A DNA stretch of 64,000 bases from Thermoplasmata archaeon (GCA_011620765.1 WOYO01000082.1:8259-72258), one strand, 5' to 3'; shown: positions 32,824 to 59,684, counted from the first letter of the stretch. Made by a program: numbers and translations. The notes: generated by a model from the letters alone, not told the origin.

Positions 32824-33321
32824 ATGGTTTCAATAAGGTTTGTTGGTTTTGGGGGGCAGGGAGTTGTTCTGGCGAGCACTATATTGGCGGAAGCAGCAAG
32901 CATGGAAGGCAAACATGCTGCACAGAGCCAGAGTTACAGCGCACAGGTGAGAGGGGACATAACAAGGGGGGATACCATAATATCCTCTGAGCCCATAATC
33001 TATCCTGTGGTTGAAAAGCCAGACATCATTGTAGCTATGGATGAAAAAGGCTTAAAAAAATACTGGAGTGATGATGCTGTTGTTGTGTATGACTCTTCTC
33101 TGATAACACTAACAGGCAAGAAAGAGGATGAAAAAGGGATAGCCGCAAATGCGATGGCAATGAAGGAGCTATCTTCTGCGCTCTACGCAAACATGGTCCT
33201 TCTCGGCTATCTGGTTAAAGAAACAGGTATAGTCAGCGCTGAAAGTGTTAAAAAGGTTCTTCAGAAGCATCCCAGAGCAGAAGAGAACATGAAGGCTTTT
33301 GAGCTGGGCTTTTATCAATAG
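32824..33321 (+). CDS. 2-oxoacid:ferredoxin oxidoreductase gamma subunit (PorG-like), with no alpha/beta/delta subunit genes nearby
   Basis: IRFVGFGGQGVVLASTILAEAA N-terminal motif of POR/VOR/KOR gamma subunits. 165 aa. Confidence 0.7.
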   Translation: MVSIRFVGFGGQGVVLASTILAEAASMEGKHAAQSQSYSAQVRGDITRGDTIISSEPIIYPVVEKPDIIVAMDEKGLKKYWSDDAVVVYDSSLITLTGKKEDEKGIAANAMAMKELSSALYANMVLLGYLVKETGIVSAESVKKVLQKHPRAEENMKAFELGFYQ

Positions 33322-34709
33322 GTTTTTGCGCCATATGCTATGGTGTCGCAATCTCTATGGCAGGAGATGCATCTTCCCTTTTCCTTCTCGCTGCCTGTGC
33401 CCAGCAAGGATACGCCCAAAGATTCTTCTATAGCGTGCCCGCACTCTTCACTTCCGCACCAGTTGAACCTTGCTATCTTTCTGCTGACCTTTCTTTTATT
33501 CATATCCTCTATGTTTACTATTTTTTCCCTGAGGAGCTTCTCTGCCTTTTTGTAGAGCCTATCGCTGAGCGCATTCAACTCTTTCTCCACTGTTTCTTTC
33601 ACATCCTCTTTAGCTATCTTTATCTTCTCTTTCGTATCCCTCGGCACAATCACAACACAGCCCTCATCAACCTCCCTGGGCCCTATCTCTATTCTCAGAG
33701 GCACGCCCTTCTTTTCCCAATCATAATACTTGTTCCCCGGGGTTATAGCTCTCTTATCTATCACAAAGTCTTTGAGATCCTCATGTACCTCATCCGCGAA
33801 TTCCATAACCCTCTTTTCCTTACCCTTGAATATCACCGGTATGATGACGCCTTTTATAGGCGCTATTGCCGGTGGCAGAATGAGGCCTGTGCTATCAGAG
33901 TGCAGTAACACCACAGCGCCTATGAGTCTCTCACTCATCCCATAGGTTGTCTGATGCACGTAGTGCTCCTTGCCTTCATCATCTTTGTATTTTATGTTGT
34001 AAGCCTTTGAAAAATTGTCCCTATAGTTGTGGATAGTCCCTATCTGCAGGGTTTTTCCTTCGGGCATGAAAGCATCAGCGCCCATGCTATAGTAAGCGCC
34101 GGCGAACTTGTCCCACTCAGGTCTTCGGTTTAGGAGGTAAGGGATGCAGAGCTTTTTTCCTATGTTTGACATTATCTCAACATCCTCTGCTATCTGTTTT
34201 TCAGATTCCTCAAATGTCTCATGCGCCGTGTGGGATTCAAAGAAATGGATCTCCCTTATCCTTATCAGAGGCCTCGTCTGCTTTGTCTCATAGCGATAGG
34301 TATTAACGATCTGAAATATCTTTAGAGGAAGATCTCTGTGGGTCCTTATCCATAGAGCAAAGGATGGGTACATTGCCGTCTCACTGGTAGGCCTGAGCAA
34401 GAGCTTTCTCTTCAGCCTTTTATCGCCCCCATGAGTTACCCAGTAGACCTGGGTGCTGAAGCCCTTTATGTGCTCCTCCTCCTTCTTAAAATAGTTCTCA
34501 GGTATTAGCAAAGGGAAATAGACCTCTCCATGAGATGTTCTTTTCATTTCTTCTCTTATAATAGAGTCAACCCTGTTTCTGATCTCCATGCCATACGGAA
34601 GCCATATGTACATCCCCTTTACCCCATACCTCATATCACATATGCCCGCTTCCAGCATCACATCCCTTTTCGTTTTGCTGCTCTTTTCTTTTTCCGTGCT
34701 CGTTTTCAT
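33315..34709 (-). CDS. proS: prolyl-tRNA synthetase (archaeal/eukaryotic type)
   Basis: Class II motifs (FLLRPTSETAMYP...; RIREIHFFESHTAH), anticodon-binding domain, and C-terminal Zn-binding extension ending in Tyr (CISCHRDCDTIAYGAKTY). Confidence 0.85.
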   Translation of the reverse strand: MKTSTEKEKSSKTKRDVMLEAGICDMRYGVKGMYIWLPYGMEIRNRVDSIIREEMKRTSHGEVYFPLLIPENYFKKEEEHIKGFSTQVYWVTHGGDKRLKRKLLLRPTSETAMYPSFALWIRTHRDLPLKIFQIVNTYRYETKQTRPLIRIREIHFFESHTAHETFEESEKQIAEDVEIMSNIGKKLCIPYLLNRRPEWDKFAGAYYSMGADAFMPEGKTLQIGTIHNYRDNFSKAYNIKYKDDEGKEHYVHQTTYGMSERLIGAVVLLHSDSTGLILPPAIAPIKGVIIPVIFKGKEKRVMEFADEVHEDLKDFVIDKRAITPGNKYYDWEKKGVPLRIEIGPREVDEGCVVIVPRDTKEKIKIAKEDVKETVEKELNALSDRLYKKAEKLLREKIVNIEDMNKRKVSRKIARFNWCGSEECGHAIEESLGVSLLGTGSEKEKGRCISCHRDCDTIAYGAKTY

Positions 34710-34711
34710 TT

Positions 34712-35770
34712 TTACACCCCCAGAGTTATTCTCAGCGCATCCCTTGTGCCTGGCGCTAACCCCAAGATTATAACCAGAAGCAGAATGATCTTTTTTATCA
34801 TCTCATCTTCATCCTTTATAGCGTATATGATCAAAAAGACAACCGCAATTTTTATCGGTATCATCACCCACGGTCCTGCAAAGTCCATGAAGAGGGAGGG
34901 TAGAACATGCTTTTCGTAATATCCAAAATAGGATAAACCAATGTATGTTGCTGTGGCATCAAGGCTCTGGGAAAAGATCGCCATCAGGCTATAGGGGCTT
35001 TTAAAATAACCTGGAGCCGGCAGAACAAAGGATAGGGCAGTGATCAATGCGGGCAGAGAGAGAGATGCAAGGAGCACCCTGATATCACTGTGAGCAGAAA
35101 GATAGAAGATATAGCACAGGGCAAGAGACAGGAGGAAAAGAGAGAAAATAAGACCCTGCATATGCCAGTCTCTGAATCTAAAGGAGAGAAAAATAAATAG
35201 AGCGCTTACAGCTATGAGATAGAGCGGGCTCATCTCTATTGCCAGATGCGGCTTTAACAGAACAATTGCTGCATCACATACTAAGATACCTGTAATCAGG
35301 GGATAGGGCAATCTGCTATTTTCTGCTCTCTTTGAGGCAAAAATGATGCATAAGAAGAGAATAAGGGTCTGTATGTATATCAGCGGGCTTATGAACAAAG
35401 CCTGGAGAGGAAGAGATAAAAAAAGGCCGAGATCCTCAAGAACCCTCGCAACAGAGCCGTAAATTATCAGAGGGAATAGAGCTAATATGAACCTTTCAAC
35501 ATCCTTTTCGCTGGACCTTTCCTTTAACTTCCCGTAGGATATATAGAGCGCAACTATTGTGAGAACAGCATATGTCAGGGTGTTAACCACATTGTAGCCA
35601 GATATTGCAGTGATCTCATTATACTCTATGCTGTATACACCATTTGCATCTGCTACTATAGGCCCCCAGAAATATTTCCATATGAATTGGTCATAGATTA
35701 TATGTGGAAAAGCTATCGCTATAGCAATGAAAAAGAATACAAATCCAAGGGCAACTAGCTTGGGGCGCAC
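34712..35770 (-). CDS. polytopic membrane protein (352 aa, about 9 TM), function unknown
   Basis: Strongly hydrophobic throughout. Sits between the GH65 fusion gene and proS on the same strand with 2-18 nt spacers. Confidence 0.5.
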   Translation of the reverse strand: MRPKLVALGFVFFFIAIAIAFPHIIYDQFIWKYFWGPIVADANGVYSIEYNEITAISGYNVVNTLTYAVLTIVALYISYGKLKERSSEKDVERFILALFPLIIYGSVARVLEDLGLFLSLPLQALFISPLIYIQTLILFLCIIFASKRAENSRLPYPLITGILVCDAAIVLLKPHLAIEMSPLYLIAVSALFIFLSFRFRDWHMQGLIFSLFLLSLALCYIFYLSAHSDIRVLLASLSLPALITALSFVLPAPGYFKSPYSLMAIFSQSLDATATYIGLSYFGYYEKHVLPSLFMDFAGPWVMIPIKIAVVFLIIYAIKDEDEMIKKIILLLVIILGLAPGTRDALRITLGV

Positions 35771-35788: not shown

Positions 35789-38700
35789 CTAAAATAAACT
35801 TTTGCTCCACGAAGATAAGGGGAAGGATCTTGTCTCCCCTGGTCCAAGATCCACAACCGCTCCTTTAAATACTATGCCTATAGGGGCTGCATTGCTCGGG
35901 CTAGCGCTTATTATAAGGTTCTCCTTATCTATATGGACTCTTATGTTGTGCTGGCGGTAGAGGAGATTGAATTCCAGCATTTTCAGCTCTTCAGGAAGGT
36001 TGGGGTCAAACCAGAGCATCTCCCCTCTGGTCTCCATTCCCGTATATCCTCTCTGTATGAGATCAACGGTTCCACCCATTGCCCCAAGGTGAACCCCCTC
36101 TGAGGTTGTGCCGCCCTGTATATCGGAGATATCACTTTCAAGAGCTTCTCTGAAGAGCTGCCATGACCTCTCTTTGCTGTATTTCGCCAGGACCCATGAA
36201 TGGACAATCCTGCTCAGAGTTGAGCCGTGGGATGTTCTTTTCATGTAATAATCAATGTTTTTGCATATGATCTCTCTATTCAGTTGATAACCAAGTCTGT
36301 TGAACATGTTCTTAAGTTCATCCTCCGAGAGAAGGTAGAAGAGCATGAGCACATCTGCCTGCTTCGATAACTTGTAGCGGTTTGTAGTATCTCCTTCTGC
36401 TTCCAATATTCTGTCAAGTCTCTGCAGATTTCTGTACTTTTTTCTGTAAAGATCCCAGTCGAACTCCTCTAATGTCCCGTAACGGTCAAACTGGCTTATT
36501 ATCTCATCCCCATGGAAGGGTATTTTCATCCGGTAGCTCATATTCTCCCAGAGCTCTTTTTCCTCCGGGGTAATCCCCAGATCCTCTTCCAGAGCTTCCC
36601 TCCTCTCATCTGATAGCAGTTTTAAAGCATCTAAAGTCCTGCACAGCGTCCAGGCAACCATGACATTTGTGTAGGCATTGTTATCTATGCCGGGCTGCTC
36701 AGCCCCGGGATACCTGTCATGGAACTCATCGGGTCCCATAATACCATGGATCTCGTATCTTCCATGGATATTCTTTGCTATGCTTGCCCAGAAACGGGAT
36801 ATCTCTACAAGCATCTCTGCACCATAATAGGAAAGGAAGTGAAGATCGCCCGTAACCTGGTAATATTGCCAGATGTTGTAGGCTATGGCTATGTTTATGT
36901 GTTTCTGCAACCATGTGTTGTCATCCCTCCATCTACCAGATAGAGGGTTCAGATGGATCCTCTGGCTCTCCTCCCTCCCGTCGCTTCCGCTCTGCCATGG
37001 ATACATCGCTCCTTTGTGGCCCGCATTTCTGGCGGATCTCCTTGCTTCCGGTAGGCGGCGATAGCGATACATGAGCAAAGCCCTTGTGATGTCAGGAATC
37101 CTGAGATTTATGAACGGGAATATGAAGAGCTCATCCCACATTATGAGCCCCCTGTAAGCCTCTCCATGGAGCCCTCTGGGCGGAACACCAGCATCCATAT
37201 CTATCGAGTGCACAGACATTGTCTGAAGGAGATGGAATATGTGCAAATGAAGTATCTGCATGGTCCTTTTATTGTTCACAACCTCCAGGTTGCAGCGTCT
37301 CCAGAGGTGCTCCCATGCGAGCACATGACGCTCAAGTAGCTTTTGAAAGCATTCAGCTGCCCTCACCTCTTTCTCTGCAGCCATCATGCTCTCCGCCACG
37401 GCTCTGTCCCTCGAGGTAAATAGGGAGACTGTCTTTTCAACGCAGATGCTCTCCCCCTGCCTGATATTAACGGAAAAACTCTGGGATACGGATCCCCTAT
37501 CCTTCTCATCCTTCCTTCTCACATCCACAGGTTTCCCGTCCTTTGTGATTCTTGTCCTTGCAGCTTCAGCTATCCTTATATGTGATTGGTTTGTCTCAAC
37601 CTGAAGGGATATGATCTCTCCGTTAGATCTGCTTTTTACAGGCTTCAGATGTGTATTATTGAGCTGTTGATACCTTGCCACACCAGAGTTTTTCACTCTC
37701 CCATCCAGAGATGCTCTGAGCTCTACCTCCCCAGACCAGTTCTCAGCCACAAGTTTCAGCTCAAGTGCTGCAAGATGGGGGTTTGCCATGTGGACCAGCC
37801 TTTTTTCTGTGATAGCCGTGAGCCTGTTCTGATCATCCTTAAATCTGATGAATCTTGTTAACAGGCCTCTCTTCATATCCAGCTCCTCTCTGTAATCAAG
37901 AATATCAAACAGGCGCTCATCGAACCATTTGTCACCAATTCTAAAGGTGAGCGGAAGCCAATTTGGGGCATTCACCAGGCTCTCATTCTCTATAGTTTTA
38001 CCATCAATCCTTGATTTCAGTCTGTTATAGCACCCTGCAATGTAGGTTCCTGGATAATGAAAGTCACTCTCAGGTGAAGCACCCCTCGTTCCAAAGTATC
38101 CATTACCGAGCGTACACAGGGCTTCTCTGGTTTTCTCTTCCTCCGGGACAAAACCATTGTATCTCAGAACCCACGTGTCTTCCTCAAAGTTGTCCAAAAG
38201 GGCTTTCAGAAAGATTTCAACATCTGAAGTATCTTTCAGCGTATAGTCCGCAGCAGTCTTTCTGCTCCCGACCAGGATGGATATCCCCCAACCTTTTATA
38301 GCCCTGAAAGCATCCTCATCTGTTCGATCATCTCCTATGTATATAGGGACAACCTTCGATCCATTTATCCAGAGCTTTTCAATAAACCCTAGCAGAGCTT
38401 TTCCCTTATCCCAATCCACTCTGGGCATAAGCTCAAGGACTTTTTTGCCTGAAGATAGCTTTAGCTCTGGATGGTTGCGTGCTACCTCTTTTACCCCCTT
38501 TTTTACCTTCCCAACATCTTTATCAACCATGCGATAGTGAACAGCTATAGAAAATCTTTTCCTCTCAAAAAGGACCCCTTTGACAGGTCCAAGGGTTCTC
38601 TTTAACTCATTCTCTATGTCTTTGAGGTCTGGTTGCTCTATGGCTTTATTTAATCCATCACACTCCATCTCCAGTCCATGGCTCCCTGCATAACAGATCC

Positions 38701-39625
38701 CCTCTATCCCAACCATCCTTTTCACATCCTTCAGCTCTCTTCCGCTCAGGATGCCTACCCTGCAACGGGTAGAGAGCGCTTTTAGAATCATTCGCATGCT
38801 CTCTGATAGTATTGCCTTCTCAGGGCTCTCTACTATAGGAGTGAGGGTTCCGTCATAATCAAGAAACACGGCTGGTATACCCCTTCTCAATTGTGCAAAT
38901 ATTGTGCCCATTTTTTCAAGAGCTGGCTCAGGTTTTTTCAGGATGGAGAGCGCGGAGAGATCTTTCACAACCACATCAGCATCCATAAGTCCTTTTCCCG
39001 TGCGGTCTATCCCTATTACAGGTTTGAAGCCCTTTGCTGCCTTAACCCCTGCCAGAGAGTCTTCAACCACCGCGCACCTTTCGGGCAAACACCCTAAGCG
39101 CTTTGCTGCTTCAAGGAATATCCCCCGCTTGTCTGGAGCCTCATCTCCACCGACAACAACGTCAAATAGTTCTATCACCCCTGCCTTCTCCAGGATTTTC
39201 CTGCAGTTTCTGCTCGCAGAAACTGCAGCAACCTTCACGCCCATACGCTTCAGCTCCTTTATGAATGCGATCGTTGAGGGAAACGTTCTCACACCACCCT
39301 CAAGTTTTTCAAGGAACCTTGCATTCTTTCTGTTTCCGATGCCGCACACAGTGTTCTGAGAAAGATCGTTAGCAGGATTACCATATGGAAGGGATATATT
39401 TTTAGATCTAAGAAAGCTCTCAACCCCTTCATATCTGGGCTTTCCGTCTATATAAAGATAGTAATCTTTATCCTCAAAGCCAAAAGGCTCTAAAGTCTCT
39501 TTCCATGCCTCTGCATGAATAGTAGCAGTATCTGTTATCACACCATCCATGTCAAATATAGCGCAATCCTTTATCTCAACATTTTTTTTGATTTCTGGCT
39601 CTTTCGGCTCTTCTGGTATGCCCAT
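35789..39625 (-). CDS. three-domain fusion: HAD-IA beta-phosphoglucomutase-like / HAD-IIB trehalose-6-phosphate phosphatase-like / GH65 glycoside phosphorylase (1278 aa)
   Basis: Residues about 1-215: IFDMDGVITDTATIHAEAWKE...VEDSLAGVKAAK (beta-PGM-type HAD). About 240-480: VFLDYDGTLTPIV...IGDDRTDEDAF (OtsB-type T6PP motifs). About 500-1278: GH65 N-terminal beta-sandwich and (alpha/alpha)6 catalytic region (...GEAYRGLIMWDELFIFPF...; ...HGIMGPDEF...). Confidence 0.8.
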   Translation of the reverse strand: MGIPEEPKEPEIKKNVEIKDCAIFDMDGVITDTATIHAEAWKETLEPFGFEDKDYYLYIDGKPRYEGVESFLRSKNISLPYGNPANDLSQNTVCGIGNRKNARFLEKLEGGVRTFPSTIAFIKELKRMGVKVAAVSASRNCRKILEKAGVIELFDVVVGGDEAPDKRGIFLEAAKRLGCLPERCAVVEDSLAGVKAAKGFKPVIGIDRTGKGLMDADVVVKDLSALSILKKPEPALEKMGTIFAQLRRGIPAVFLDYDGTLTPIVESPEKAILSESMRMILKALSTRCRVGILSGRELKDVKRMVGIEGICYAGSHGLEMECDGLNKAIEQPDLKDIENELKRTLGPVKGVLFERKRFSIAVHYRMVDKDVGKVKKGVKEVARNHPELKLSSGKKVLELMPRVDWDKGKALLGFIEKLWINGSKVVPIYIGDDRTDEDAFRAIKGWGISILVGSRKTAADYTLKDTSDVEIFLKALLDNFEEDTWVLRYNGFVPEEEKTREALCTLGNGYFGTRGASPESDFHYPGTYIAGCYNRLKSRIDGKTIENESLVNAPNWLPLTFRIGDKWFDERLFDILDYREELDMKRGLLTRFIRFKDDQNRLTAITEKRLVHMANPHLAALELKLVAENWSGEVELRASLDGRVKNSGVARYQQLNNTHLKPVKSRSNGEIISLQVETNQSHIRIAEAARTRITKDGKPVDVRRKDEKDRGSVSQSFSVNIRQGESICVEKTVSLFTSRDRAVAESMMAAEKEVRAAECFQKLLERHVLAWEHLWRRCNLEVVNNKRTMQILHLHIFHLLQTMSVHSIDMDAGVPPRGLHGEAYRGLIMWDELFIFPFINLRIPDITRALLMYRYRRLPEARRSARNAGHKGAMYPWQSGSDGREESQRIHLNPLSGRWRDDNTWLQKHINIAIAYNIWQYYQVTGDLHFLSYYGAEMLVEISRFWASIAKNIHGRYEIHGIMGPDEFHDRYPGAEQPGIDNNAYTNVMVAWTLCRTLDALKLLSDERREALEEDLGITPEEKELWENMSYRMKIPFHGDEIISQFDRYGTLEEFDWDLYRKKYRNLQRLDRILEAEGDTTNRYKLSKQADVLMLFYLLSEDELKNMFNRLGYQLNREIICKNIDYYMKRTSHGSTLSRIVHSWVLAKYSKERSWQLFREALESDISDIQGGTTSEGVHLGAMGGTVDLIQRGYTGMETRGEMLWFDPNLPEELKMLEFNLLYRQHNIRVHIDKENLIISASPSNAAPIGIVFKGAVVDLGPGETRSFPLSSWSKSLF

Positions 39626-39646: not shown

Positions 39647-39656
39647 ACTATTTATA
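39647..39656 (-). promoter_or_regulatory. TATA box (minus-strand reading gctataaatag) about 25-30 bp upstream of the GH65 fusion gene start
   Basis: Canonical archaeal TATA at leaderless spacing from the ATG at 39625. Confidence 0.45.
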
Positions 39657-40006: not shown

Positions 40007-42733
40007 TCAGATTCCATTCTCAACGAGCTTCAGTTTTATTATCCCTTCAATGTATTCGACAGCGTTCTTTGCGTTCTCTGCAGGAACACTTCCCTGAGCA
40101 AGATTCGCTCTACCTCCTGCTTTTCCACCAAACCTCTCCACTTCTCTGAGCAGCTCTGCACAGTTTATATCGATCTTTTCATTTCTTGCAACAGCTATGT
40201 TACCAAAATTATTTGCTATTATGGCCACAACTCCATCTCTCTCAGCAAGGGCTGTTGCTTCCTTGACTATGCCCTTAGCATCAAGTTCATTCACGTCTTT
40301 GAACACCTTTATGTTATCTACCTCTTCCGGATTAAGTATCTTTATCCTCTCACTTATAACATATTCGGTTAGTCTTTCAATGCTCTTTTTCATATCTTTC
40401 CACTCTGCAAATAGCCTTCCAGCAACCCTTTCAAGGTGCTCCTCTTTTGTGTTGAATGTGCTACAAAGGGATTCTATCAGCCTTTCCTTTTTTTCAAACT
40501 CCTCAAGTGCGCTGTCTGCAACTGCAAACTCTATTCTTTCGACTCCATCCTGGACCCTCTCTGTGCGAAGGATCTTTATCCAGCCTACTTCTCCAGTCCG
40601 CTGACAGTGTGTGCCTGCGCATGCCTGCGCATCTATGGAATCTATTGTGACAACCCTTATCTCATTTCCCTTTGGCACGCCACCTTCATAAAGAACGAAA
40701 CCATACTCCTGTTCAGCCTCATTCCTCTTCATGAATCTTGCTTCTACTGGCAGATCTGATAGAACTATCTCATTTGCCCTTTGCTCTATTCTTTCCAGAT
40801 CATCGCGCGCAATGCGCCTGTAATGGGTTATGTCAAGCCTGCTTCTTTCAATCCCTTTCTGCGCTCCATGTTGCCAAACATGTTTTCCCAGTAGCTCCCT
40901 TGCTGCAGCCAGAATTATATGAGTGGCTGTATGATTTCTCTCCAGAGCTCTTCTTCTTTTTTCATCAACCAGCCCAGAAACAATGCTGTCTTCCGCAGCC
41001 CCTAGATCCTTATCTGTATGATGGATAACAACTCCATTCACCTTTTCAACATCCAAAACATTTACCTCTCTGCCATCAGAGCTTAAAACACCTATATCGC
41101 TAGGCTGCCCACCGCCTTCAGGATAAAACAAAGTTCTATCCAGCACCACCTCTTTTCCTTTGCATCTCAGAACCTTTGCCTCAAATTCATACTCTCTCGG
41201 CTTATCATAAAAAAGGAGCTCTGTTGGTTTGAGATGGTATTCTTCTTTTTCTTTTCCCCCCTTCTCTTTTTCTATCCCCTTCTCACTTGAGTGCATCTGT
41301 GCGATCAGAGAATAAAAGTTATCAGGTATCTCAACGTCCACAATCGTTTTGACCACTTCGGGTGGTATGCCATAAGTGTCATAAAATCTCATGAGCTCCT
41401 CTATAGTGGCATTACCTCTAACCTCTCTCTTCACCATTGCTTTACCTTTCTCTATTGTTTCTTCATACTTTTTCTCTTCAATGTCTATGATCTCCCTGAT
41501 TCTCTCAATGTCCTCTCTGTATTTTTTAAGCCTCTCATTTATGTGCCTCTCAACCAGATCACTCAGGCTTACGTCTATGCGGAGATCCTGGAGTATCTTT
41601 AGACTTCTCCTTATCATGAGCCTCACAAGATACCCTGCTTTCGTGTTGCTCGGCACAATGCCATCACCGAGCATAAGAGCTATGCACTTTGTGTGGTCGC
41701 AGATTGTGTATACCTTCTCTATAGGCTCCATTATCCCTGCTATCTGCTCAGGTTCTATGCTATACCCGAGGAGTTTAAGTCTATTGGAGCACTGCTCTCT
41801 GAATAGCTTTATGTTTGTGCTGGCACTCATTCCCCCAGCCAATCTGGAGCTTTCTTCAACAATAGCTGCTGTTTCTTCATCGTTCATATCAATGCCAGCT
41901 TTAGTTAGAAGATCATCTATCATCTGGGGGTATATGGCATTGTATACCGTTGGGGTGCCCTGTGATGCCCATGCAAGTCGCTCTAAACCATAGCCTGTAT
42001 CAACTATGCGCATATCCATAGGCGTGTAGCGCTCCCCCTCTATGACTGTTGTGTCTTCATCTGATTCATTGGCTAACCTGAGGCTCATAAAAACCAGAGT
42101 AACAAGCTCCAGACCATGGCTGAGAACCTCAAGAGCTGGACCTGCGTTCCCTCCTCCACTCCAGGGGTTCTCTTTATACGTAACAAGATCCGTATCAACA
42201 CCTATACTTTTAAGAAAACCATCGCAGTACGCAACTGTTTCGTTTATCCAGTATATCTTCTTTCTTTTATAATTAAAGGCATGGTGGGCCATCATCTCAA
42301 AGTTGGTGAGATGCCTCCCGCTTCTGCCCACGGAGTCTAAATCATTCAGCCTTATGCAGGGCTGGGAGATGCAGAGCGGGTTTGCTGGTGGCTCACATTC
42401 CCCGCTGGTCACATTGGGTTGAAAATCAGCTATGCTTGCTATTGTGAGAAATATATCATCCCTCCACCTTGCTATCACAGGATAGCTTTCTATCCTTTTG
42501 TGGCCGTTTTTCTCAAAAAAGGAGAGGAAAGCCTCTCGCATTTCATCAACACTGTATTTTTTCTTGGTGATCGGATTGCCTATAAAAGAATATTCAACAC
42601 AGGGTGAATCACCGCACAGCTCCTGTTCTTTGTTCTTTGTCCAGAACGCGCTACCACAGCTTTTACATTTCTTGCGCACATAGCCATTCTCTTTGAAGAA
42701 AGGTATTCTGTAGGCTCTCTCGAGATCCACCAT
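40007..42733 (-). CDS. alaS: alanyl-tRNA synthetase
   Basis: Archaeal-type 908-aa AlaRS: N-terminal Zn-ribbon region (CKSCGSAFWT), class II catalytic core, editing-domain HxxxH/CxxxH motifs (HTATH...CAGTHC), C-terminal DHHA1-like domain. Confidence 0.9.
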   Translation of the reverse strand: MVDLERAYRIPFFKENGYVRKKCKSCGSAFWTKNKEQELCGDSPCVEYSFIGNPITKKKYSVDEMREAFLSFFEKNGHKRIESYPVIARWRDDIFLTIASIADFQPNVTSGECEPPANPLCISQPCIRLNDLDSVGRSGRHLTNFEMMAHHAFNYKRKKIYWINETVAYCDGFLKSIGVDTDLVTYKENPWSGGGNAGPALEVLSHGLELVTLVFMSLRLANESDEDTTVIEGERYTPMDMRIVDTGYGLERLAWASQGTPTVYNAIYPQMIDDLLTKAGIDMNDEETAAIVEESSRLAGGMSASTNIKLFREQCSNRLKLLGYSIEPEQIAGIMEPIEKVYTICDHTKCIALMLGDGIVPSNTKAGYLVRLMIRRSLKILQDLRIDVSLSDLVERHINERLKKYREDIERIREIIDIEEKKYEETIEKGKAMVKREVRGNATIEELMRFYDTYGIPPEVVKTIVDVEIPDNFYSLIAQMHSSEKGIEKEKGGKEKEEYHLKPTELLFYDKPREYEFEAKVLRCKGKEVVLDRTLFYPEGGGQPSDIGVLSSDGREVNVLDVEKVNGVVIHHTDKDLGAAEDSIVSGLVDEKRRRALERNHTATHIILAAARELLGKHVWQHGAQKGIERSRLDITHYRRIARDDLERIEQRANEIVLSDLPVEARFMKRNEAEQEYGFVLYEGGVPKGNEIRVVTIDSIDAQACAGTHCQRTGEVGWIKILRTERVQDGVERIEFAVADSALEEFEKKERLIESLCSTFNTKEEHLERVAGRLFAEWKDMKKSIERLTEYVISERIKILNPEEVDNIKVFKDVNELDAKGIVKEATALAERDGVVAIIANNFGNIAVARNEKIDINCAELLREVERFGGKAGGRANLAQGSVPAENAKNAVEYIEGIIKLKLVENGI

Positions 42734-43672: not shown

Positions 43673-44919
43673 TGGAAGACATAGGAGCAAAACCCGTAGA
43701 GAAAAGAACCTCAAGTGCTGTTGATAGTTTTGTTATCTGGCTTATGGGTGGCATAGCGATGACAACAGCGCTTGTGGCGAGCTTTACATACTCTATGGGT
43801 GTCCTTGGTTTAGCCCTTGTGTGCGTCGCGGTGCTTGGGATAGGGGGCATAATGGCAGCGATCTGGGAGGAGCTTGGCAGAAAAACAGGGCTTCCTGCGC
43901 TAACAATAAGTCAAAAAACCTTTGGAGCATCAGGAACAGCACTCTTGGCTATGATATTCGCTCTATTGAATGTTGGCTGGTTCGGTATAAACACAGAGGT
44001 TCCCGCTGTGATGCTGGAGTCATATTTTGGTCTCCCTGCTCCACTCTGGTCTCTGCTGCTGGGTGTATTGCAGATCGTTATAGTCCTTCTGGGATTTGAA
44101 GTGATAAAAAGCTTTGATTATATAAGCTTAGTAATCATATTGATAGGCTCTATTGTTATGGTTTATGAGGGCTTTGTTGTTGAGGGTGTTAGCATAAGCC
44201 TTTCAGGCACGATAGACGCAAGGTCTTTTGCTGTAGCCCTGGAGTCGGCTGGAGCTTTTTCACTTGTGGCATGGTGCTATAAGATACCCGAAACCTCAAG
44301 GTTCTGCAAAAAGGATGGAAAGCCATGGGTATACGCTATTGCCCCCTCTCTGGGGGTGGTTCTGGGCTTGTTCCTCTTCGGAATCCTCGGGTTCATTTCC
44401 ATAGCCTCTACAGGATCGCTGGATGGTTGGAACATCTTTCTTTTAGGAAAAAGCATGGGGGCTATAGGTGCTATAATCGCTGTGACTGCCATAGTAGCCA
44501 ATGCCAATACAAACATAATCAACCTGTATCCTGCTGTAATGCAGTTTCTCTCAGGTAGTGAGGCCCTGGGGAAAAAGGTGAGGCAGCCCATCGTTTCTGC
44601 AGTCATGGGAGCGATAGGAACTGTTTTAGCTATGAGCGGGATATTGAGCAGGGTAACGGATTTTCTGAATGTTGTGGGCTCTCTCGTAGTGCCGTTTTCT
44701 TTTGTTGTCTTTGTTGATCTCTTTATTTTTAAGAACAGGAGCAAGAAAGGAGCGTATTCATCTCTTCTACCGCTGATCTCAGTTTTTGCTGGTTCTGCGG
44801 CAGCGCTCTTATCTTCCAACGCAAGGTTTCTCATACCATCATGGCTTGTTGGAGGAATGGTTTCAGGGGTGATGTACTTAGTTATAGGTGGTATACTCTA
44901 TCGGAGCAGCAGCTATTAG
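43672..44919 (+). CDS. 12-TM permease, probable nucleobase/nucleoside transporter (NCS1-like)
   Basis: Polytopic membrane protein of 415 aa. Its ATG overlaps the stop of the nucleoside phosphorylase gene (TAATGG). Family assignment is tentative. Confidence 0.45.
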   Translation: MEDIGAKPVEKRTSSAVDSFVIWLMGGIAMTTALVASFTYSMGVLGLALVCVAVLGIGGIMAAIWEELGRKTGLPALTISQKTFGASGTALLAMIFALLNVGWFGINTEVPAVMLESYFGLPAPLWSLLLGVLQIVIVLLGFEVIKSFDYISLVIILIGSIVMVYEGFVVEGVSISLSGTIDARSFAVALESAGAFSLVAWCYKIPETSRFCKKDGKPWVYAIAPSLGVVLGLFLFGILGFISIASTGSLDGWNIFLLGKSMGAIGAIIAVTAIVANANTNIINLYPAVMQFLSGSEALGKKVRQPIVSAVMGAIGTVLAMSGILSRVTDFLNVVGSLVVPFSFVVFVDLFIFKNRSKKGAYSSLLPLISVFAGSAAALLSSNARFLIPSWLVGGMVSGVMYLVIGGILYRSSSY

Positions 44920-46001
44920 AGTTTTTTCACGAAGTCATCTATGTGATCCCTGGCCTTTTCTCTCTTTTTTCTGTGCTCTGTGAGAAAAGAATTCACCTTT
45001 TCTGCCAGCATAGCCTTGCACTCCCCACATAGTAGAGAACCACTCCTGCACCTGTCGTGGATACCTCTAACCTTGCTATCATCAGGCTCGAAGAAGAAAT
45101 AGTAGTATGAATAAACAGCACAAACCTCAGGATTCCCGCCGTGAAGACGCTGCTCCTTTACAGTGGCTGCTCCGCCTGTGAACGCATTCATGATCTTTTT
45201 TCTCACCTGTTCTTCATCATCGGTTGTGAAGATGCTCGATTCGGGTGAGGAAGAGCTCATCTTTTCATTGCCGGTGAGAGAAGGCAGGAGCTTGCAATAG
45301 ATTGAAGCAGGCTTCGGATAGCCCAATGGCTCTGCGACATCTCTCGTAACCCTGAAGTGAGGATCCTGGTCTATAGCGCACGGTATGAGGCATCTCACGC
45401 TCTTCTTTTCAATTTCGCTCAGCAGAAATGCTGGAGCTGACTGGATGCTTGTATAAAATATAGAGCCTATGTTTGTTGATGAATCAAAACCGAAAACAGC
45501 TTTAGCTGTAGAGAATGTAACCCTCTTGGCAACCTTTATTGCGATAGGATAGAGAACATTCATGTTATCGGTGTCCAGAAATATTGTCGTCTTCTCTGGA
45601 TCAAAGCCAAGAGCTATTATGTCTAAAGCATTATCATAGGCAAGCCTTTTTGTATCCTCCAATGATAAATCCTCATTAAAGAGGAATTTCTCATCATCAG
45701 TCAGCTGAAAATAGAGCTCCGTACCCCACTCCTTTTGAAGAAAAAGGTTAAACACCCATGGTAAAAGGTGTCCTATGTGTATTTTCCCTGAGGGCCCCCT
45801 GCCCGTATAAAGATAAAACTTTTCCCTTGCATCTATTATCTTATCCAGATCTCTATGGGCATAAAAGATCCTGCGCCTGAGCATAAAGTGATCTGGCAAC
45901 TTTTGCAAAAGCTCATCCGTTATCTCGCTCACTCCAAACTCTTCTATCAGCTTCTGATAGTCTATCTTCCCGCTGACCTCCCAGGGGGTTACTTTGAACA
46001 T
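44916..46001 (-). CDS. trpS: tryptophanyl-tRNA synthetase (archaeal/eukaryotic type)
   Basis: Class I HIGH (PSGKIHIGHL) and KMSKS (NEKMSSSSP) motifs. 361 aa. Confidence 0.8.
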   Translation of the reverse strand: MFKVTPWEVSGKIDYQKLIEEFGVSEITDELLQKLPDHFMLRRRIFYAHRDLDKIIDAREKFYLYTGRGPSGKIHIGHLLPWVFNLFLQKEWGTELYFQLTDDEKFLFNEDLSLEDTKRLAYDNALDIIALGFDPEKTTIFLDTDNMNVLYPIAIKVAKRVTFSTAKAVFGFDSSTNIGSIFYTSIQSAPAFLLSEIEKKSVRCLIPCAIDQDPHFRVTRDVAEPLGYPKPASIYCKLLPSLTGNEKMSSSSPESSIFTTDDEEQVRKKIMNAFTGGAATVKEQRLHGGNPEVCAVYSYYYFFFEPDDSKVRGIHDRCRSGSLLCGECKAMLAEKVNSFLTEHRKKREKARDHIDDFVKKL

Positions 46002-50526: not shown

Positions 50527-50679
50527 ATGGCTAGATTTCCTGAAGCAACAGAGAGGGTTTTAAACAGGAAGGTTTGTATGAAATGCTCTGCCACAAACTC
50601 TGTTAGAGCAAAGAGATGCAGAAGGTGTGGTAGCAAAGAGTTGAGATTAAAGTCTAAAGAGATCAAGGCTAAAGGCTGA
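50527..50679 (+). CDS. rpl40e: 50S ribosomal protein L40e (50 aa); not in the supplied ORF track
   Basis: Hand translation: [50 protein letters not shown] then stop. C4 zinc ribbon of L40e. The stop TGA shares its A with the pheT ATG (TGATG). Confidence 0.8.
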
Positions 50680-52244
50680 TGGTTACTCTTCACGTGCCTA
50701 TTGAGAAACTTTCCTTAAGCAAGCCTCAAATAGAGGAGGGCTTGAGGAACATTGGGTGCTCTATTGAAGGAGGAGGTATCGAAATAAACCCGAATAGGCC
50801 TGACCTCTTCTCAAGAATAGGTATAGAAAGAGCTCTGAAGCATTACTTTTTCAGGGAGCTTACGGATTACACGATTGAAAGGCCCAAAATAGAATGCTAC
50901 GCAGATGAGGTTGCTGTTAGACCATTCATAGTGTGTGCTGTGGTGAGGGGTGTGAGACTTGATGATGAAAATATAAGGGAGTTGATAGAGCTGCAAGAGC
51001 TTCTTCACCTTACCTTAGGGAGGAACAGACGATTTGCTGCGATAGGGCTGCATGATCTGGATGATGTATCACCACCTTTTTATTATAAAAGCGCACCGGA
51101 AAGCAGGAGTTTTACCCCTCTGGGGAGTTATAGAGAAATGAGCATAAAAGAGATCCTTGAAAAGAATGAGAAAGGAGCAGAATTCAAGCATCTTGTTGAG
51201 AATGATAAAAGGTTGTATCCTCTTCTTGAGGACGCTGAAGGAAAAGTTCTGTCAATGCCACCGATAATCAACGGTAACGTAACAGCACTCAAAGAATCAA
51301 CAAAGAATCTGTTCATTGATGTTACGGGAATAACAGAGCATGTGCCCTACACAGTTATAAACCTTTTAGTTTGTGACCTCCTTGATAGATTCAAAGACGC
51401 TAAAGCAGAGAAAGTCAGGGTGATAGGGAAGGAGACAGGAGAGTATCCTGATCTTACCAGAGTAAAATGGAGTATAAATTTAAGAGAGGCAGAAAGAATT
51501 ACAGGGATAAAGATGAGCACTGAAGAAGCAATAGATTCTTTAGAAAAGATGGGGCATATAGCATATGGCGATGGAAATGAAAAATTGTGCGTAGAGGTGC
51601 CATGTTACAGGAGCGATATAATGCACCCATACGATATATTTGAAGAGCTCGCTATTGGGTACGGCTATGGTAGAATAAAGGAAAAGCTGCCAGAGAGCTG
51701 GACCCCAGGGAAGAAAAGGTTCAGAACCAGAGATATACTGAGAGAGATATTTACAGGCATGGGCTTTATAGAGGCTACCACACTAAACCTGAGCTCTGAA
51801 GAAGAGCAGCTGGAGCTTATGAACTTAAAGACAAAAGAAACTGTTGAGATCCTGAACCCTGTCTCGAATCTATCCATACTCCGTTTCTGGCTCATACCCT
51901 CTCTGCTCTCAATACTCAGAGCTAATAAGCATAACCCGCTGCCGCAGAGGGTGTTTGAATGTGATCAGCTCTATGATAGAGAGCATGCTGCCTGCCTCAT
52001 AGAGAGCACCAGCGCAGACTTTAAGGAGATAAAATCTATATCTGAAGCCATATTCCATGCGCTCAACATTGAGGTTTCTTATTTGAGTGAATCTCACCCC
52101 TCCTTTATAAAAGGAAGGTGTGCCGTGATCGTTAAGGATAATGAAAAAGCAGGGATTATAGGAGAGCTGCACCCCTCAGTGCTGAGAAACTTTCAGCTTG
52201 AAACACCCGTGTGCGCTTTAGAGTTGTGGGGGTTGCAAGAATGA
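50679..52244 (+). CDS. pheT: phenylalanyl-tRNA synthetase beta subunit (archaeal type)
   Basis: N-terminal B3/B4 region IEINPNRPDLFSRIGIERAL parallels the archaeal PheT EVTPDRVDLLSEEGLARAL block. 521 aa. Confidence 0.75.
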   Translation: MVTLHVPIEKLSLSKPQIEEGLRNIGCSIEGGGIEINPNRPDLFSRIGIERALKHYFFRELTDYTIERPKIECYADEVAVRPFIVCAVVRGVRLDDENIRELIELQELLHLTLGRNRRFAAIGLHDLDDVSPPFYYKSAPESRSFTPLGSYREMSIKEILEKNEKGAEFKHLVENDKRLYPLLEDAEGKVLSMPPIINGNVTALKESTKNLFIDVTGITEHVPYTVINLLVCDLLDRFKDAKAEKVRVIGKETGEYPDLTRVKWSINLREAERITGIKMSTEEAIDSLEKMGHIAYGDGNEKLCVEVPCYRSDIMHPYDIFEELAIGYGYGRIKEKLPESWTPGKKRFRTRDILREIFTGMGFIEATTLNLSSEEEQLELMNLKTKETVEILNPVSNLSILRFWLIPSLLSILRANKHNPLPQRVFECDQLYDREHAACLIESTSADFKEIKSISEAIFHALNIEVSYLSESHPSFIKGRCAVIVKDNEKAGIIGELHPSVLRNFQLETPVCALELWGLQE

Positions 52245-59652: not shown

Positions 59653-59684
59653 TAAAGGTAAAAATGTCGATAAAGAGGTGAAGT

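What the first reader, a model, noticed from the sequence alone, without database searches (positions are those of the whole stretch)
35789..39625. Single 1278-aa polypeptide fusing beta-phosphoglucomutase-like, trehalose-6-phosphate-phosphatase-like and GH65 phosphorylase modules
Motifs for all three modules are clear (DMDGVITDT; LDYDGTL...GDDRTDED; GH65 core). GH65 enzymes make or consume beta-glucose-1-phosphate. Beta-PGM interconverts beta-G1P and G6P. T6PP dephosphorylates trehalose-6-P. Fused in this order they could form a self-contained route G6P to beta-G1P, then with G6P to trehalose-6-P, then trehalose (an OtsA-independent synthesis), or the reverse catabolic channel. The gene has its own TATA box and is followed on the same strand by an unknown 9-TM membrane protein and proS.
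Basis: partly seen in the sequence, partly recalled or inferred. Interest (0 to 1): 0.65.

Follow-up and report, generated by a model that had tools for sequence, protein, structure and literature searches.

The report
OtsB1-like three-enzyme trehalose fusion protein

Summary
ORF 35789-39625 (-) encodes 1278 aa with three modules, each far above chance: a beta-PGM-family HAD, a trehalose-6-P phosphatase and a complete GH65.

New here: the GH65 part is a phosphorylase of the trehalose-6-phosphate type (TrePP). It keeps the catalytic Glu and the phosphate-site residues. It matches the published T6P specificity motif at 5 of 6 positions, and its closest solved structure is a lactic-acid-bacterium TrePP. 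All T6PP catalytic residues are intact. The beta-PGM module is closest to Rv3400, a characterised beta-PGM, but has a lineage-specific 8-residue deletion next to its motif III lysine. All three modules are under purifying selection.

The fusion is not new as an object. At least 120 full-length homologues and about 600 species genomes carry these modules, fused or as adjacent genes. The literature describes M. tuberculosis OtsB1 (1327 aa, function unknown) as a protein of this kind.

Neighbours elsewhere point to synthesis from glucose-6-P under stress: PEP synthase, GAPDH, PGK, aldolase, PfkB, TrmB, universal stress proteins and sometimes OtsA.

Best reading (about 0.5): 2 G6P -> trehalose + 2 Pi without a nucleotide sugar. 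This is untested biochemically.

Verdict: new member of a known, uncharacterised kind; moderate interest.

The parts
35789..39625 (-). Whole gene: 1278-aa three-module protein plus stop codon
   Evidence: ORF. Domains. 96 %-identical orthologue with the same length and gene order in L081. Overall dN/dS 0.15.
38942..39568 (-). Module 1, aa 20-228: beta-phosphoglucomutase-family HAD (D25, D27, T33, H37, G61, R64, S136, S138, R139, N140, K166, E188, D189)
   Evidence: Pfam HAD/HAD_2. TIGR02009 scores 135.5-139.6 bits (cutoff 153.35) and TIGR01990 94.5-99 bits (cutoff 189.4). Best PDB sequence hit is 8h5s. AF2 model has pLDDT 90; Foldseek top hit is 8h5s = M. tuberculosis Rv3400, followed almost entirely by beta-PGM structures. 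Residue conservation.
39122..39151 (-). Motif III loop of module 1, aa 159-168 (GGDEAPDKRG): shortened by 8 residues compared with 119 of 120 homologues, which read '..LKGKPDP..'
   Evidence: MAFFT alignments. One alternative MAFFT alignment and phmmer place K166 on the conserved Lys. In the model K166 starts helix 166-177, which precedes strand 184-188.
38195..38875 (-). Module 2, aa 251-477: trehalose-6-phosphate phosphatase (D256, D258, T260, S294, R296, H316, K407, D432, D433, D436)
   Evidence: Pfam Trehalose_PPase, E 1.6e-47. TIGR00685 equivalog scores 188.7 bits, above the cutoff of 68. Best PDB hit is 5gvx, E 7e-52. These residues are conserved in 118-121 of 121 sequences (query plus 120 homologues).
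37409..38161 (-). Module 3a, aa 489-739: GH65 N-terminal beta-sandwich domain (includes N-loop residue S549 = CsKP position 64)
   Evidence: Pfam Glyco_hydro_65N, E 3e-73. Position mapping.
36065..37246 (-). Module 3b, aa 794-1187: GH65 catalytic (alpha/alpha)6 barrel. Catalytic acid E967. Phosphate site R817, Y824, S1135, T1136, H1179. Subsite -1: W830, D831, K1088, Q1089. Subsite +1 / specificity: W877, Q878, G880, Q888, D902, N903
   Evidence: Pfam Glyco_hydro_65m, E 2e-124. Alignment to 9lb6 and CsKP 3wiq. Residue roles from PMC11442529. Conservation.
35849..36037 (-). Module 3c, aa 1197-1259: GH65 C-terminal domain
   Evidence: Pfam Glyco_hydro_65C, E 1.7e-14.
39649..39656 (-). TATAAATA, candidate archaeal TATA box 24-31 nt upstream of the ATG. 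This spacing implies a leaderless or near-leaderless mRNA.
   Evidence: Sequence read. Promoter function is inferred from the position only.

Best explanation
The gene encodes a trifunctional enzyme centred on trehalose-6-phosphate (T6P). It most likely synthesises trehalose from two molecules of glucose-6-phosphate (G6P) without any nucleotide sugar.

Proposed steps:
1. [quoted passage not shown]
2. Module 3 (GH65, TrePP type) runs in the synthetic direction: beta-G1P + G6P -> T6P + Pi.
3. Module 2 (T6PP) hydrolyses T6P irreversibly to trehalose + Pi and so pulls the two reversible steps.

Net reaction: 2 G6P + H2O -> trehalose + 2 Pi.

Fusion would keep the scarce beta-G1P and the potentially toxic T6P close to the next active site.

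Shown here: the identity of the modules, their intact catalytic residues, the T6P-type specificity residues, purifying selection, and the recurrent linkage of the three modules across phyla.

Inferred: the activities themselves, the direction of flux, channelling, and the physiological role (compatible solute or reserve made from gluconeogenic G6P under stress).
For: 1. Module identities.
2. The GH65 module is a phosphorylase, not a hydrolase. It has the catalytic acid E967 and phosphate-site residues R817, Y824, S1135, T1136 and H1179. These are identical to those of Lactococcus TrePP and are present in all 121 sequences and all 80 species loci (residue roles from PMC11442529).
3. T6P specificity. 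At the six specificity-determining positions of De Beul et al. 2021 (T6P phosphorylase = DQGQDE, verified on the Caldithrix enzyme), the query reads S-Q-G-Q-D plus the same sixth residue as Lactococcus TrePP. 47 of 80 related loci have D at the first position. The best solved relative is 9lb6 (E 4e-139), which is 61-62 % identical to the Lactococcus lactis/cremoris protein that JGI names trehalose 6-phosphate phosphorylase.
4. T6PP module. It passes the curated equivalog cutoff, and all HAD motif residues are conserved.
5. Module 1. It is closest in sequence and predicted fold to Rv3400, a beta-PGM characterised in vitro and in vivo. D25, D27, T33, H37, G61, R64, S136, S138, R139, N140, E188 and D189 are conserved. 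K166 sits where the motif III Lys is expected.
6. Selection. dN/dS against the 96 % relative is 0.14 / 0.30 / 0.12 for modules 1 / 2 / 3.
7. Rosetta-stone pattern. The same three modules occur as one gene, as [bPGM-T6PP]+[GH65], as [bPGM]+[T6PP-GH65], or as [T6PP-GH65]+bPGM, in archaea and in at least 6 bacterial phyla. Fused enzymes are usually consecutive steps, and the only consecutive order that uses an irreversible phosphatase is the synthetic one.
8. Context elsewhere. PEP synthase lies within 10 kb in 12 loci (directly next to the fusion genes in about eight), PfkB in 7 loci, and universal stress proteins in 20 loci. In Methanomassiliicoccus luminyensis the gene follows TrmB and precedes GAPDH, PfkB, a DeoC-type aldolase and PGK. 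In a Dehalococcoidia genome it lies among Usp, PEP synthase and cation ATPases.
9. Chemistry. TrePP plus beta-PGM make T6P from beta-G1P alone in vitro (Taguchi 2020, cited in PMC11442529). T6P formation by TrePP is reported as strongly favoured (PMC13121652).
Against: - No enzymatic assay exists for this protein or any full-length homologue that I could find.
- M. tuberculosis OtsB1 was reported to lack T6P phosphatase activity (data not shown), and its deletion gave no obvious phenotype.
- The beta-PGM equilibrium lies towards G6P (textbook value, from memory). Steady-state beta-G1P would therefore be low and the route depends on pull by the phosphatase.
- Module 1 of this particular protein has an 8-residue deletion at motif III and scores below the curated beta-PGM family cutoffs.
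- The first specificity position is S, not D.
- The GH65 module is only 33 % identical to Lactococcus TrePP.
- An OtsA gene lies near the fusion in 5 of 80 loci, so the T6PP module may simply serve OtsA there.
- In this window the neighbours are housekeeping genes and say nothing about function.
- Whether this archaeon has other trehalose genes or accumulates trehalose is unknown.
Confidence: 0.5

Rival explanations
1. T6P 'valve' or catabolic enzyme. T6P made by OtsA (or taken up) is either dephosphorylated to trehalose by module 2, or phosphorolysed by module 3 and returned to G6P by module 1, as in the Lactococcus TrePP/PgmB pathway. The protein would set T6P and trehalose levels rather than provide a new synthetic route.
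For: - The TrePP and beta-PGM reactions are reversible, and the characterised Lactococcus pair is catabolic (reference list; PMC11442529).
- bPGM-GH65 fusions without T6PP exist in L045, L050, L056, L074 and L079, and in a 948-aa HAD+GH65 protein among the TrePP relatives (P0224).
- OtsA lies near the fusion in 5 loci.
- Rv3400 is needed for growth on trehalose in M. tuberculosis.
Against: - Fusing two enzymes that compete for one substrate is unusual.
- Archaea such as Methanomassiliicoccus are not known to import sugars as phosphates (my knowledge, not tested).
- 75 of 80 loci show no OtsA within 10 kb.
- The neighbours of orthologues are gluconeogenic rather than sugar-uptake genes.
Confidence: 0.25
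2. Same architecture but different substrates. The GH65 module would transfer glucose from beta-G1P to another phosphorylated acceptor (or act on trehalose or kojibiose), and the T6PP-like module would dephosphorylate that product, making a different glucoside solute.
For: - GH65 phosphorylases are relaxed about acceptors (PMC11442529).
- The first specificity position differs from characterised TrePPs (S549).
- Identity to Lactococcus TrePP is only 33 %.
- The next-best solved relative is a kojibiose phosphorylase.
Against: - Five of six specificity positions and the whole W-Q-...-N +1 subsite pattern match TrePP, not the KP (WE..T), TP (WR) or MP (MV) patterns.
- Module 2 passes the T6PP equivalog cutoff by 120 bits.
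- An OtsA neighbour in 5 loci ties the family to T6P.
Confidence: 0.1
3. One or more modules are catalytically dead relics (for example the beta-PGM module after its deletion). The protein would work only as a T6P phosphatase, only as a phosphorylase, or as a sugar-phosphate sensor.
For: - There is an 8-residue deletion at motif III of module 1.
- Module 1 is truncated or degenerate in many Mycobacterium orthologues, and D27 is replaced in L001, L010 and L012.
- OtsB1 was reported to be inactive as a phosphatase.
Against: - Every catalytic residue of all three modules is present in the window protein.
- Module 1 has dN/dS 0.14, as low as the GH65 module.
- The module 1 model is confident (pLDDT 90), with K166 in the motif III position.
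Confidence: 0.1

Closest known systems
Mycobacterium tuberculosis OtsB1 (Rv2006), a 1327-aa DosR-regulon protein listed in GH65
   Same: OtsB1 is described as a much larger T6PP homologue (1327 aa against 391 aa for OtsB2) and as a GH65 / 'glycosyl hydrolase' protein. Orthologues in Mycobacterium, Mycolicibacterium and Nocardia species align to the window protein over aa ~12-1268 at 43-47 % identity, with the same module order.
   Different: - Function unknown; never properly assayed.
- Bacterial, and embedded in a dormancy island (Usp, nitroreductase, WS/DGAT, PfkB).
- In many Mycobacterium species the N-terminal HAD is truncated or degenerate.
- The window protein is archaeal, about 45 aa shorter (seven deletions), and sits among housekeeping genes.
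- I did not retrieve the H37Rv sequence itself.
Lactococcus lactis trehalose-6-phosphate phosphorylase (TrePP) plus beta-phosphoglucomutase PgmB; TrePP-type structure 9lb6/9lb7
   Same: The same two chemistries. The GH65 module shares the catalytic and phosphate-site residues and 5 of 6 specificity positions with TrePP. The best PDB hit is 9lb6, E 4e-139.
   Different: - The Lactococcus enzymes are separate proteins.
- They have a catabolic role downstream of sugar uptake as T6P (my knowledge of Andersson et al. 2001).
- No T6P phosphatase is attached.
- Only 33 % identity; position 64 is D in TrePP and S here.
OtsA/OtsB (TPS/TPP) pathway and OtsB-type T6P phosphatases (e.g. M. tuberculosis OtsB2, 5gvx)
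   Same: The last step is the same. Module 2 matches 5gvx at E 7e-52 and passes TIGR00685.
   Different: OtsA uses UDP- or ADP-glucose. Here no GT20 domain is present, and T6P would come from beta-G1P + G6P.
M. tuberculosis Rv3400 beta-phosphoglucomutase (8h5s)
   Same: It is the closest solved relative of module 1 by sequence (E 1e-33) and by predicted fold (TM 0.78, 36 % identity). The cap motif GK(P/K)R...GNRKN is shared. Beta-PGM activity has been shown.
   Different: Rv3400 is a stand-alone protein with the canonical GKPAPD motif III. The window module has the shortened loop GGDEAPDKRG.
In vitro 'coenzyme-free' T6P cascades (maltose phosphorylase + TrePP + beta-PGM or polyphosphate glucokinase)
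   Same: They use TrePP in the synthetic direction, with beta-PGM supplying G6P or beta-G1P. This shows the chemistry works and favours T6P.
   Different: These are engineered mixtures of separate enzymes that start from maltose, and they are described as new-to-nature. They stop at T6P and include no phosphatase.

Membership tests
Glycoside hydrolase family 65 (GH65) | N-terminal, catalytic (alpha/alpha)6 and C-terminal GH65 domains | tested here: met
   PF03636 scores 246.7 bits, PF03632 415.7 bits and PF03633 53.8 bits, all above their cutoffs.
Glycoside hydrolase family 65 (GH65) | Catalytic acid Glu (CsKP E483) and the -1 subsite residues W343, D344, K596, Q597 | tested here: met
   E967, W830, D831, K1088 and Q1089 are present, and invariant in 121 sequences. 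Residue roles from PMC11442529.
GH65 phosphorylases (as opposed to GH65 hydrolases) | Phosphate-binding residues (CsKP K330, Y337, S631, S632, H675) | tested here: met
   R817, Y824, S1135, T1136 and H1179. The K->R and S->T changes are shared with Lactococcus TrePP and 9lb6. The absence of a hydrolase-type catalytic base could not be checked, because the region does not align with the hydrolase 7fe3.
Trehalose-6-phosphate phosphorylase (EC 2.4.1.216; De Beul subgroup 22) | Specificity motif DQGQDE at CsKP positions 64, 392, 394, 402, 416, 585 | tested here: inconclusive
   The query reads S549, Q878, G880, Q888, D902 plus the same sixth residue as Lactococcus TrePP: a 5 of 6 match with S instead of D at position 64. 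47 of 80 related loci have D. The alignment of loop 7 (position 585) is ambiguous: E by phmmer, R by MAFFT.
Trehalose-6-phosphate phosphorylase (EC 2.4.1.216; De Beul subgroup 22) | Closest characterised or solved relative is a TrePP | tested here: met
   9lb6 scores 468 bits, against 358 for kojibiose phosphorylase, 240 for glucosylglycerol phosphorylase and 231 for maltose phosphorylase. 9lb6 is 61-62 % identical to the L. lactis/cremoris protein named trehalose 6-phosphate phosphorylase by JGI.
Trehalose-6-phosphate phosphorylase (EC 2.4.1.216; De Beul subgroup 22) | Reversible reaction T6P + Pi <-> beta-G1P + G6P | not testable with these tools
   This needs an enzyme assay.
Trehalose-6-phosphate phosphatase (TIGR00685 / PF02358, HAD-IIB) | Score above the curated equivalog cutoff | tested here: met
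   TIGR00685 scores 188.7 bits against a cutoff of 68.05; PF02358 scores 162.1 against 27.
Trehalose-6-phosphate phosphatase (TIGR00685 / PF02358, HAD-IIB) | HAD motifs I-IV (DxDGT, S/T, K, GDDxTDE) | tested here: met
   D256, D258, T260, S294, K407, D432, D433, T435, D436 and E437 are present and conserved in 118-121 of 121 sequences.
Beta-phosphoglucomutase (TIGR01990 equivalog; TIGR02009 family) | Score above the curated cutoffs | tested here: not met
   TIGR01990 scores 94.5-99 bits against 189.4; TIGR02009 scores 135.5-139.6 against 153.35. Module 1 of a canonical homologue (P0002) passes TIGR02009 (162.2) but not TIGR01990.
Beta-phosphoglucomutase (TIGR01990 equivalog; TIGR02009 family) | Catalytic Asp pair, hinge T/H, distal phosphate site (R49, S116, K117, N118 of the L. 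lactis enzyme) and Mg site E169/D170 | tested here: met
   D25, D27, T33, H37, R64, S138, R139, N140, E188 and D189. The L. lactis numbering is from my own knowledge of that enzyme.
Beta-phosphoglucomutase (TIGR01990 equivalog; TIGR02009 family) | Motif III lysine (K145 of the L. lactis enzyme) | tested here: inconclusive
   An 8-residue deletion removes the family's 'LKGKPDP' in one alignment. phmmer and a second MAFFT alignment put K166 on the conserved Lys. In the AF2 model K166 begins the helix that precedes the motif IV strand.
OtsB1-like HAD-T6PP-GH65 fusion proteins | All three modules in one polypeptide in the order HAD, T6PP, GH65 | tested here: met
   The query shows this order. 120 of the 120 best homologues, 1278-1369 aa long, have the same Pfam set. 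Most of the 80 species loci encode the three modules in one reading frame.

The most novel reading that the evidence does not exclude
The OtsB1-like fusion is a natural, nucleotide-sugar-independent trehalose synthase (2 G6P -> trehalose + 2 Pi, through beta-G1P and T6P). That would make it a sixth route to trehalose. It would be used from gluconeogenic carbon during stress or dormancy in archaea, Chloroflexota, Desulfobacterota, Proteobacteria and Actinomycetota. It would also assign a function to M. tuberculosis OtsB1 and provide a natural counterpart of cascades recently described as 'new-to-nature'.
Probability: 0.45. Interest if true: 0.75.

Novelty: new member of a known kind. Interest (0 to 1): 0.45.

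Why it matters
Five routes to trehalose are recognised (by name, from my own knowledge: OtsAB, TreYZ, TreS, TreP, TreT). A TrePP-based route fed only by glucose-6-phosphate would be a sixth, and it would save one nucleotide triphosphate per trehalose.

The family includes OtsB1 of M. tuberculosis, a dormancy-regulon protein whose function has been open for two decades.

The survey here gives concrete assays to run. It covers T6P-type specificity residues, intact catalytic sites, the modules recurring fused or adjacent across phyla, and gluconeogenic and stress neighbourhoods.

The window's protein itself adds a compact archaeal member, about 45 residues shorter than the rest. That could make it a convenient construct for expression.

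Tried and rejected
- **Neighbourhood of the window gene.** I looked for sugar genes around it. Within about ±13 kb there are only housekeeping genes: proS, alaS, a Trp/Tyr-type tRNA synthetase, a PNP/UDP-type phosphorylase, a permease, an Opp-type ABC transporter and a POR subunit. No link was found.
- **The DUF63 neighbour as a possible partner.** tblastn of it, and of the other neighbours, against 80 related loci gave no hit. It is conserved only in the 96 % relative. I dropped it as a functional partner.
- **Rfam scan of the window.** No hits.
- **PDB name 'trehalose-6-phosphate hydrolase' for 9lb6.** This raised a hydrolase rival. I rejected it because 9lb6 and the query keep the full phosphate site, and 9lb6 is 61-62 % identical to the Lactococcus protein named trehalose 6-phosphate phosphorylase. 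A 2025 paper on TrePP structure is cited; its link to 9lb6 is my guess.
- **Module 1 as a decaying relic.** Rejected on dN/dS 0.14 and amino-acid identity equal to the other modules.
- **Literature.** Ten searches found no paper linking TrePP chemistry to OtsB1, Methanomassiliicoccus or Dehalococcoides. The supplement of De Beul 2021 holds no text on subgroups 21 or 22.
- **Not done.**
  - A model of the full-length protein (1278 aa exceeds the 1200-aa limit).

Full report
**1. Observation**

The ORF listing returns one uninterrupted ORF at 35789..39625 on the minus strand, 1278 aa, starting with ATG. Pfam finds five domains:

| Domain | Residues | E-value |
|---|---|---|
| HAD / HAD_2 | 20-199 | 7e-23 / 1e-18 |
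| Trehalose_PPase | 254-466 | 1.6e-47 |
| Glyco_hydro_65N | 489-739 | 3e-73 |
| Glyco_hydro_65m | 794-1187 | 2e-124 |
| Glyco_hydro_65C | 1197-1259 | 1.7e-14 |

NCBIfam gives the T6PP equivalog TIGR00685 at 188.7 bits (cutoff 68). The beta-PGM family models TIGR02009 and TIGR01990 are the best hits for the first module, but below their cutoffs.

A TATAAATA box lies 24-31 nt upstream of the ATG. The gene is followed after 18 nt by a PF01889 membrane protein and then by proS.

**2. The GH65 module**

The best solved relative is 9lb6 (E 4e-139, 468 bits). It is well ahead of kojibiose phosphorylase 3wiq (358 bits), glucosylglycerol phosphorylase (240) and maltose phosphorylase (231). 9lb6 is deposited as 'trehalose-6-phosphate hydrolase', but it is 61-62 % identical to the 769-aa Lactococcus lactis/cremoris protein that JGI names trehalose 6-phosphate phosphorylase.

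I used the residue roles compiled in PMC11442529 and an alignment numbered on CsKP; all 19 check residues reproduced the published numbering. On that basis the query has:

- the catalytic acid E967;
- the -1 subsite residues W830, D831, K1088 and Q1089;
- a complete phosphate site (R817, Y824, S1135, T1136, H1179), identical to that of Lactococcus TrePP.

These residues are invariant in the query plus 120 homologues. They are present in all 80 species loci.

De Beul et al. 2021 defined six specificity-determining positions. T6P phosphorylases read DQGQDE, verified experimentally on a Caldithrix enzyme that makes T6P from beta-G1P and G6P. The query reads S-Q-G-Q-D and has the same sixth residue as Lactococcus TrePP. 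Of the related loci, 47 have D at the first position, 32 have S and 1 has C. The kojibiose (EEAPxx), trehalose (TRIGPP) and maltose (KV[MF]NES) patterns do not fit.

Overall identity to Lactococcus TrePP is only 33 %. The specificity call is therefore a well-supported inference, not a proof.

**3. The two HAD modules**

*Module 2.* It carries every T6PP motif residue: D256, D258, T260, S294, R296, H316, K407, D432, D433, D436. Each is conserved in 118-121 of 121 sequences. Its best solved relative is 5gvx, deposited as trehalose-phosphate phosphatase (E 7e-52).

*Module 1.* It has the Asp pair D25/D27, hinge residues T33 and H37, the cap G61..R64, the distal phosphate site S136-A-S138-R139-N140, and E188-D189.

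Its closest solved structure by sequence is 8h5s. The AlphaFold2 model is confident (pLDDT 90.1, pTM 0.84). By fold, the top hit is again 8h5s (TM 0.78), and about 35 beta-PGM structures make up nearly all of the hits that follow. The fold search identifies 8h5s as M. tuberculosis Rv3400. Rv3400 is a beta-PGM shown in vitro and by a 30-fold rise of beta-G1P in the deletion mutant.

*A peculiarity of the window protein.* The protein and its 96 % relative P0001 are shortened by seven deletions compared with the other 119 homologues. One of these removes eight residues at the family's 'LKGKPDP' motif III.

The evidence on that deletion is as follows:

- phmmer and a second MAFFT alignment place K166 on the conserved lysine.
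- In the model, K166 begins the helix (166-177) that precedes the motif IV strand (184-188). From my knowledge of the HAD fold, that is where the motif III lysine sits.
- dN/dS between the window gene and its orthologue in L081 is 0.14, 0.30 and 0.12 for modules 1, 2 and 3.

None of the modules is therefore decaying.

**4. Distribution**

The 120 best hits in the protein collection are all 1278-1369 aa long with the same Pfam set. Apart from P0001 (96 %), they are 52-56 % identical to the query. NCBI names them 'trehalose-phosphatase' and JGI 'alpha,alpha-trehalase'. They come from Chloroflexota/Dehalococcoidia, Methanomassiliicoccus luminyensis and unnamed metagenomic sources. P0001 is from a Candidatus Thermoplasmatota archaeon.

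The best 80 include the following taxa:

- Archaea: Methanomassiliicoccus and an unclassified Methanobacteriota archaeon.
- Actinomycetota: Mycobacterium, Mycolicibacterium, Nocardia, Amycolatopsis, Gordonia, Rubrobacteraceae.
- Desulfobacterota, Chloroflexota and Bacillota.
- Alpha-, Beta- and Gammaproteobacteria.
- Binatia and Nitrospirae.

The literature describes M. tuberculosis OtsB1 (Rv2006) as a 1327-aa T6PP homologue, assigned to GH65, of unknown function and never properly assayed. The object is thus a member of a known but uncharacterised family.

**5. Architecture variants**

tblastn of the three modules against the 80 loci shows the following arrangements:

| Arrangement | Loci |
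|---|---|
| Full fusion in one frame | most loci |
| [bPGM-T6PP] then GH65 in another frame | 12-13 (e.g. L055, L057, L059, L062-L064, L066, L068) |
| bPGM then [T6PP-GH65] | L011, L037, L043, L047, L078 |
| [T6PP-GH65] then bPGM | L058, L061 |
| bPGM-GH65 without T6PP | L045, L050, L056, L074, L079 |
| GH65 alone | L060, L070, L071 |

Counts over the 80 loci:

| Module | Detected | Catalytic motifs intact |
|---|---|---|
| GH65 | 80 | 80 |
| T6PP | 68 | 63 |
| bPGM | 68 | 49 |
| All three | - | 42 |

Module 1 is the labile part. It is truncated or degenerate in many Mycobacterium species, and D27 is replaced in L001, L010 and L012.

The three modules recur either fused or as adjacent genes across domains of life. 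This is a classic sign that they act in one pathway.

**6. Context**

In the window the neighbours are housekeeping genes. None of them recurs near the fusion elsewhere.

I clustered the flanking ORFs of the 80 loci, named the clusters with Pfam and read their positions. This gives:

- PEP synthase within 10 kb of the fusion genes in 12 loci, and directly next to them in about eight. These include a Methanomassiliicoccus, a Dehalococcoidia, a Desulfobacterales and a Rubrobacteraceae genome.
- A PfkB kinase in 7 loci.
- OtsA (GT20) in 5 loci.
- In Actinomycetota, a dormancy-type set: universal stress proteins, a nitroreductase and WS/DGAT.

In M. luminyensis the gene follows a TrmB regulator by 53 nt. 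It precedes a 2-hydroxyacid dehydrogenase, GAPDH, PfkB and a DeoC-family aldolase, with PGK on the opposite strand. In a Dehalococcoidia genome it lies between Usp, PEP synthase and a Na/H exchanger on one side and LigD and two P-type ATPases on the other.

**7. Mechanism**

The phosphatase step is irreversible. The only order in which all three modules are consecutive steps is therefore:

1. G6P -> beta-G1P (module 1)
2. beta-G1P + G6P -> T6P + Pi (module 3)
3. T6P -> trehalose + Pi (module 2)

The chemistry is feasible. TrePP plus beta-PGM produce T6P from beta-G1P alone in one pot (Taguchi 2020, cited in PMC11442529), and T6P formation by TrePP is reported as strongly favoured (PMC13121652). 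From memory, not tested here, the beta-PGM equilibrium is about 28:1 towards G6P. That would make proximity of the sites and pull by the phosphatase useful.

I give this reading about 0.5. The rivals are:

- a T6P valve or catabolic role (0.25), favoured by the OtsA neighbours and by bPGM-GH65 fusions that lack the phosphatase;
- other substrates (0.1);
- dead modules (0.1).

**8. Verdict**

The thing itself is a new, compact archaeal member of the OtsB1-like fusion family, so it is not novel as an architecture.

What remains open is the biochemical function of the whole family. The analysis here makes that directly testable. The held literature contains no paper that links TrePP chemistry to OtsB1 or to these archaea.

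Noticed in passing
window 34712-35770 (-): The membrane protein 18 nt downstream of the fusion gene is a PF01889 (DUF63) family member. The collection's newer Pfam release lists PF01889 as AliA_AliB. A hydropathy scan shows about 9-10 separate hydrophobic segments. It is conserved next to the fusion only in the 96 % relative (L081), not in 80 other loci.
   Followed up: partly
window 35789-39625 (-); deletions after aa 44, 163, 215, 228, 331, 484, 521: The window protein and P0001 are a shortened lineage: seven deletions totalling about 66 alignment columns compared with 119 homologues. These include 16 aa in the beta-PGM cap, 8 aa at motif III and 23 aa in the linker between the HAD modules.
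   Followed up: partly
L020, L021, L024, L025, L028, L030, L032, L033, L035, L036, L041, L065 (Mycobacterium, Gordonia and unclassified Actinomycetota); L001, L010, L012: In many actinobacterial orthologues, mostly Mycobacterium, the beta-PGM module lacks its N-terminal half or has replaced catalytic residues. In L001, L010 and L012 the second Asp (D27) is Y or G. The T6PP-GH65 pair is the conserved core of the family.
   Followed up: partly
L002, L011, L020, L024, L031, L068, L084 and others: A PEP synthase gene (PPDK_N + PEP-utilizers + PEP-utilizers_C, about 800 aa) lies next to the fusion in archaea and several bacterial phyla, often with a PfkB kinase. This is an unexplained cross-phylum association that suggests gluconeogenic supply.
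   Followed up: partly
L082/L083 9136-9948 and 14132-19353: In Methanomassiliicoccus luminyensis the orthologue is preceded by a TrmB-family regulator and followed by a 2-hydroxyacid dehydrogenase, GAPDH, PfkB and a DeoC-family aldolase, with PGK on the opposite strand.
   Followed up: no
P0224 (948 aa): Among the relatives of the lactic-acid-bacterium TrePP 9lb6 (49 % identical to it) there is a two-module protein with HAD (PF13419/PF00702) plus GH65 and no T6PP domain.
   Followed up: no
window 57192-60347 (+) and 61050-63247 (+): There is an ABC transporter (two permeases plus an ATPase) followed by PhoU, probably for phosphate. After it comes a sugar-type ABC transporter (SBP_bac_1 binding protein plus a permease) that runs towards the end of the window, about 21 kb from the fusion gene.
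   Followed up: no
window 33315-34709, 40007-42733, 44916-46001, 50679-52244: Four aminoacyl-tRNA synthetase genes lie within 19 kb around the fusion gene: proS, alaS, a class Ib Trp/Tyr-type enzyme and the pheT beta chain.
   Followed up: no
PDB 9lb6/9lb7: The chain is deposited under the name 'trehalose-6-phosphate hydrolase', but it carries the full GH65 phosphate site and the DQGQD TrePP motif. It is 61-62 % identical to Lactococcus TrePP. The deposited name looks misleading.
   Followed up: yes
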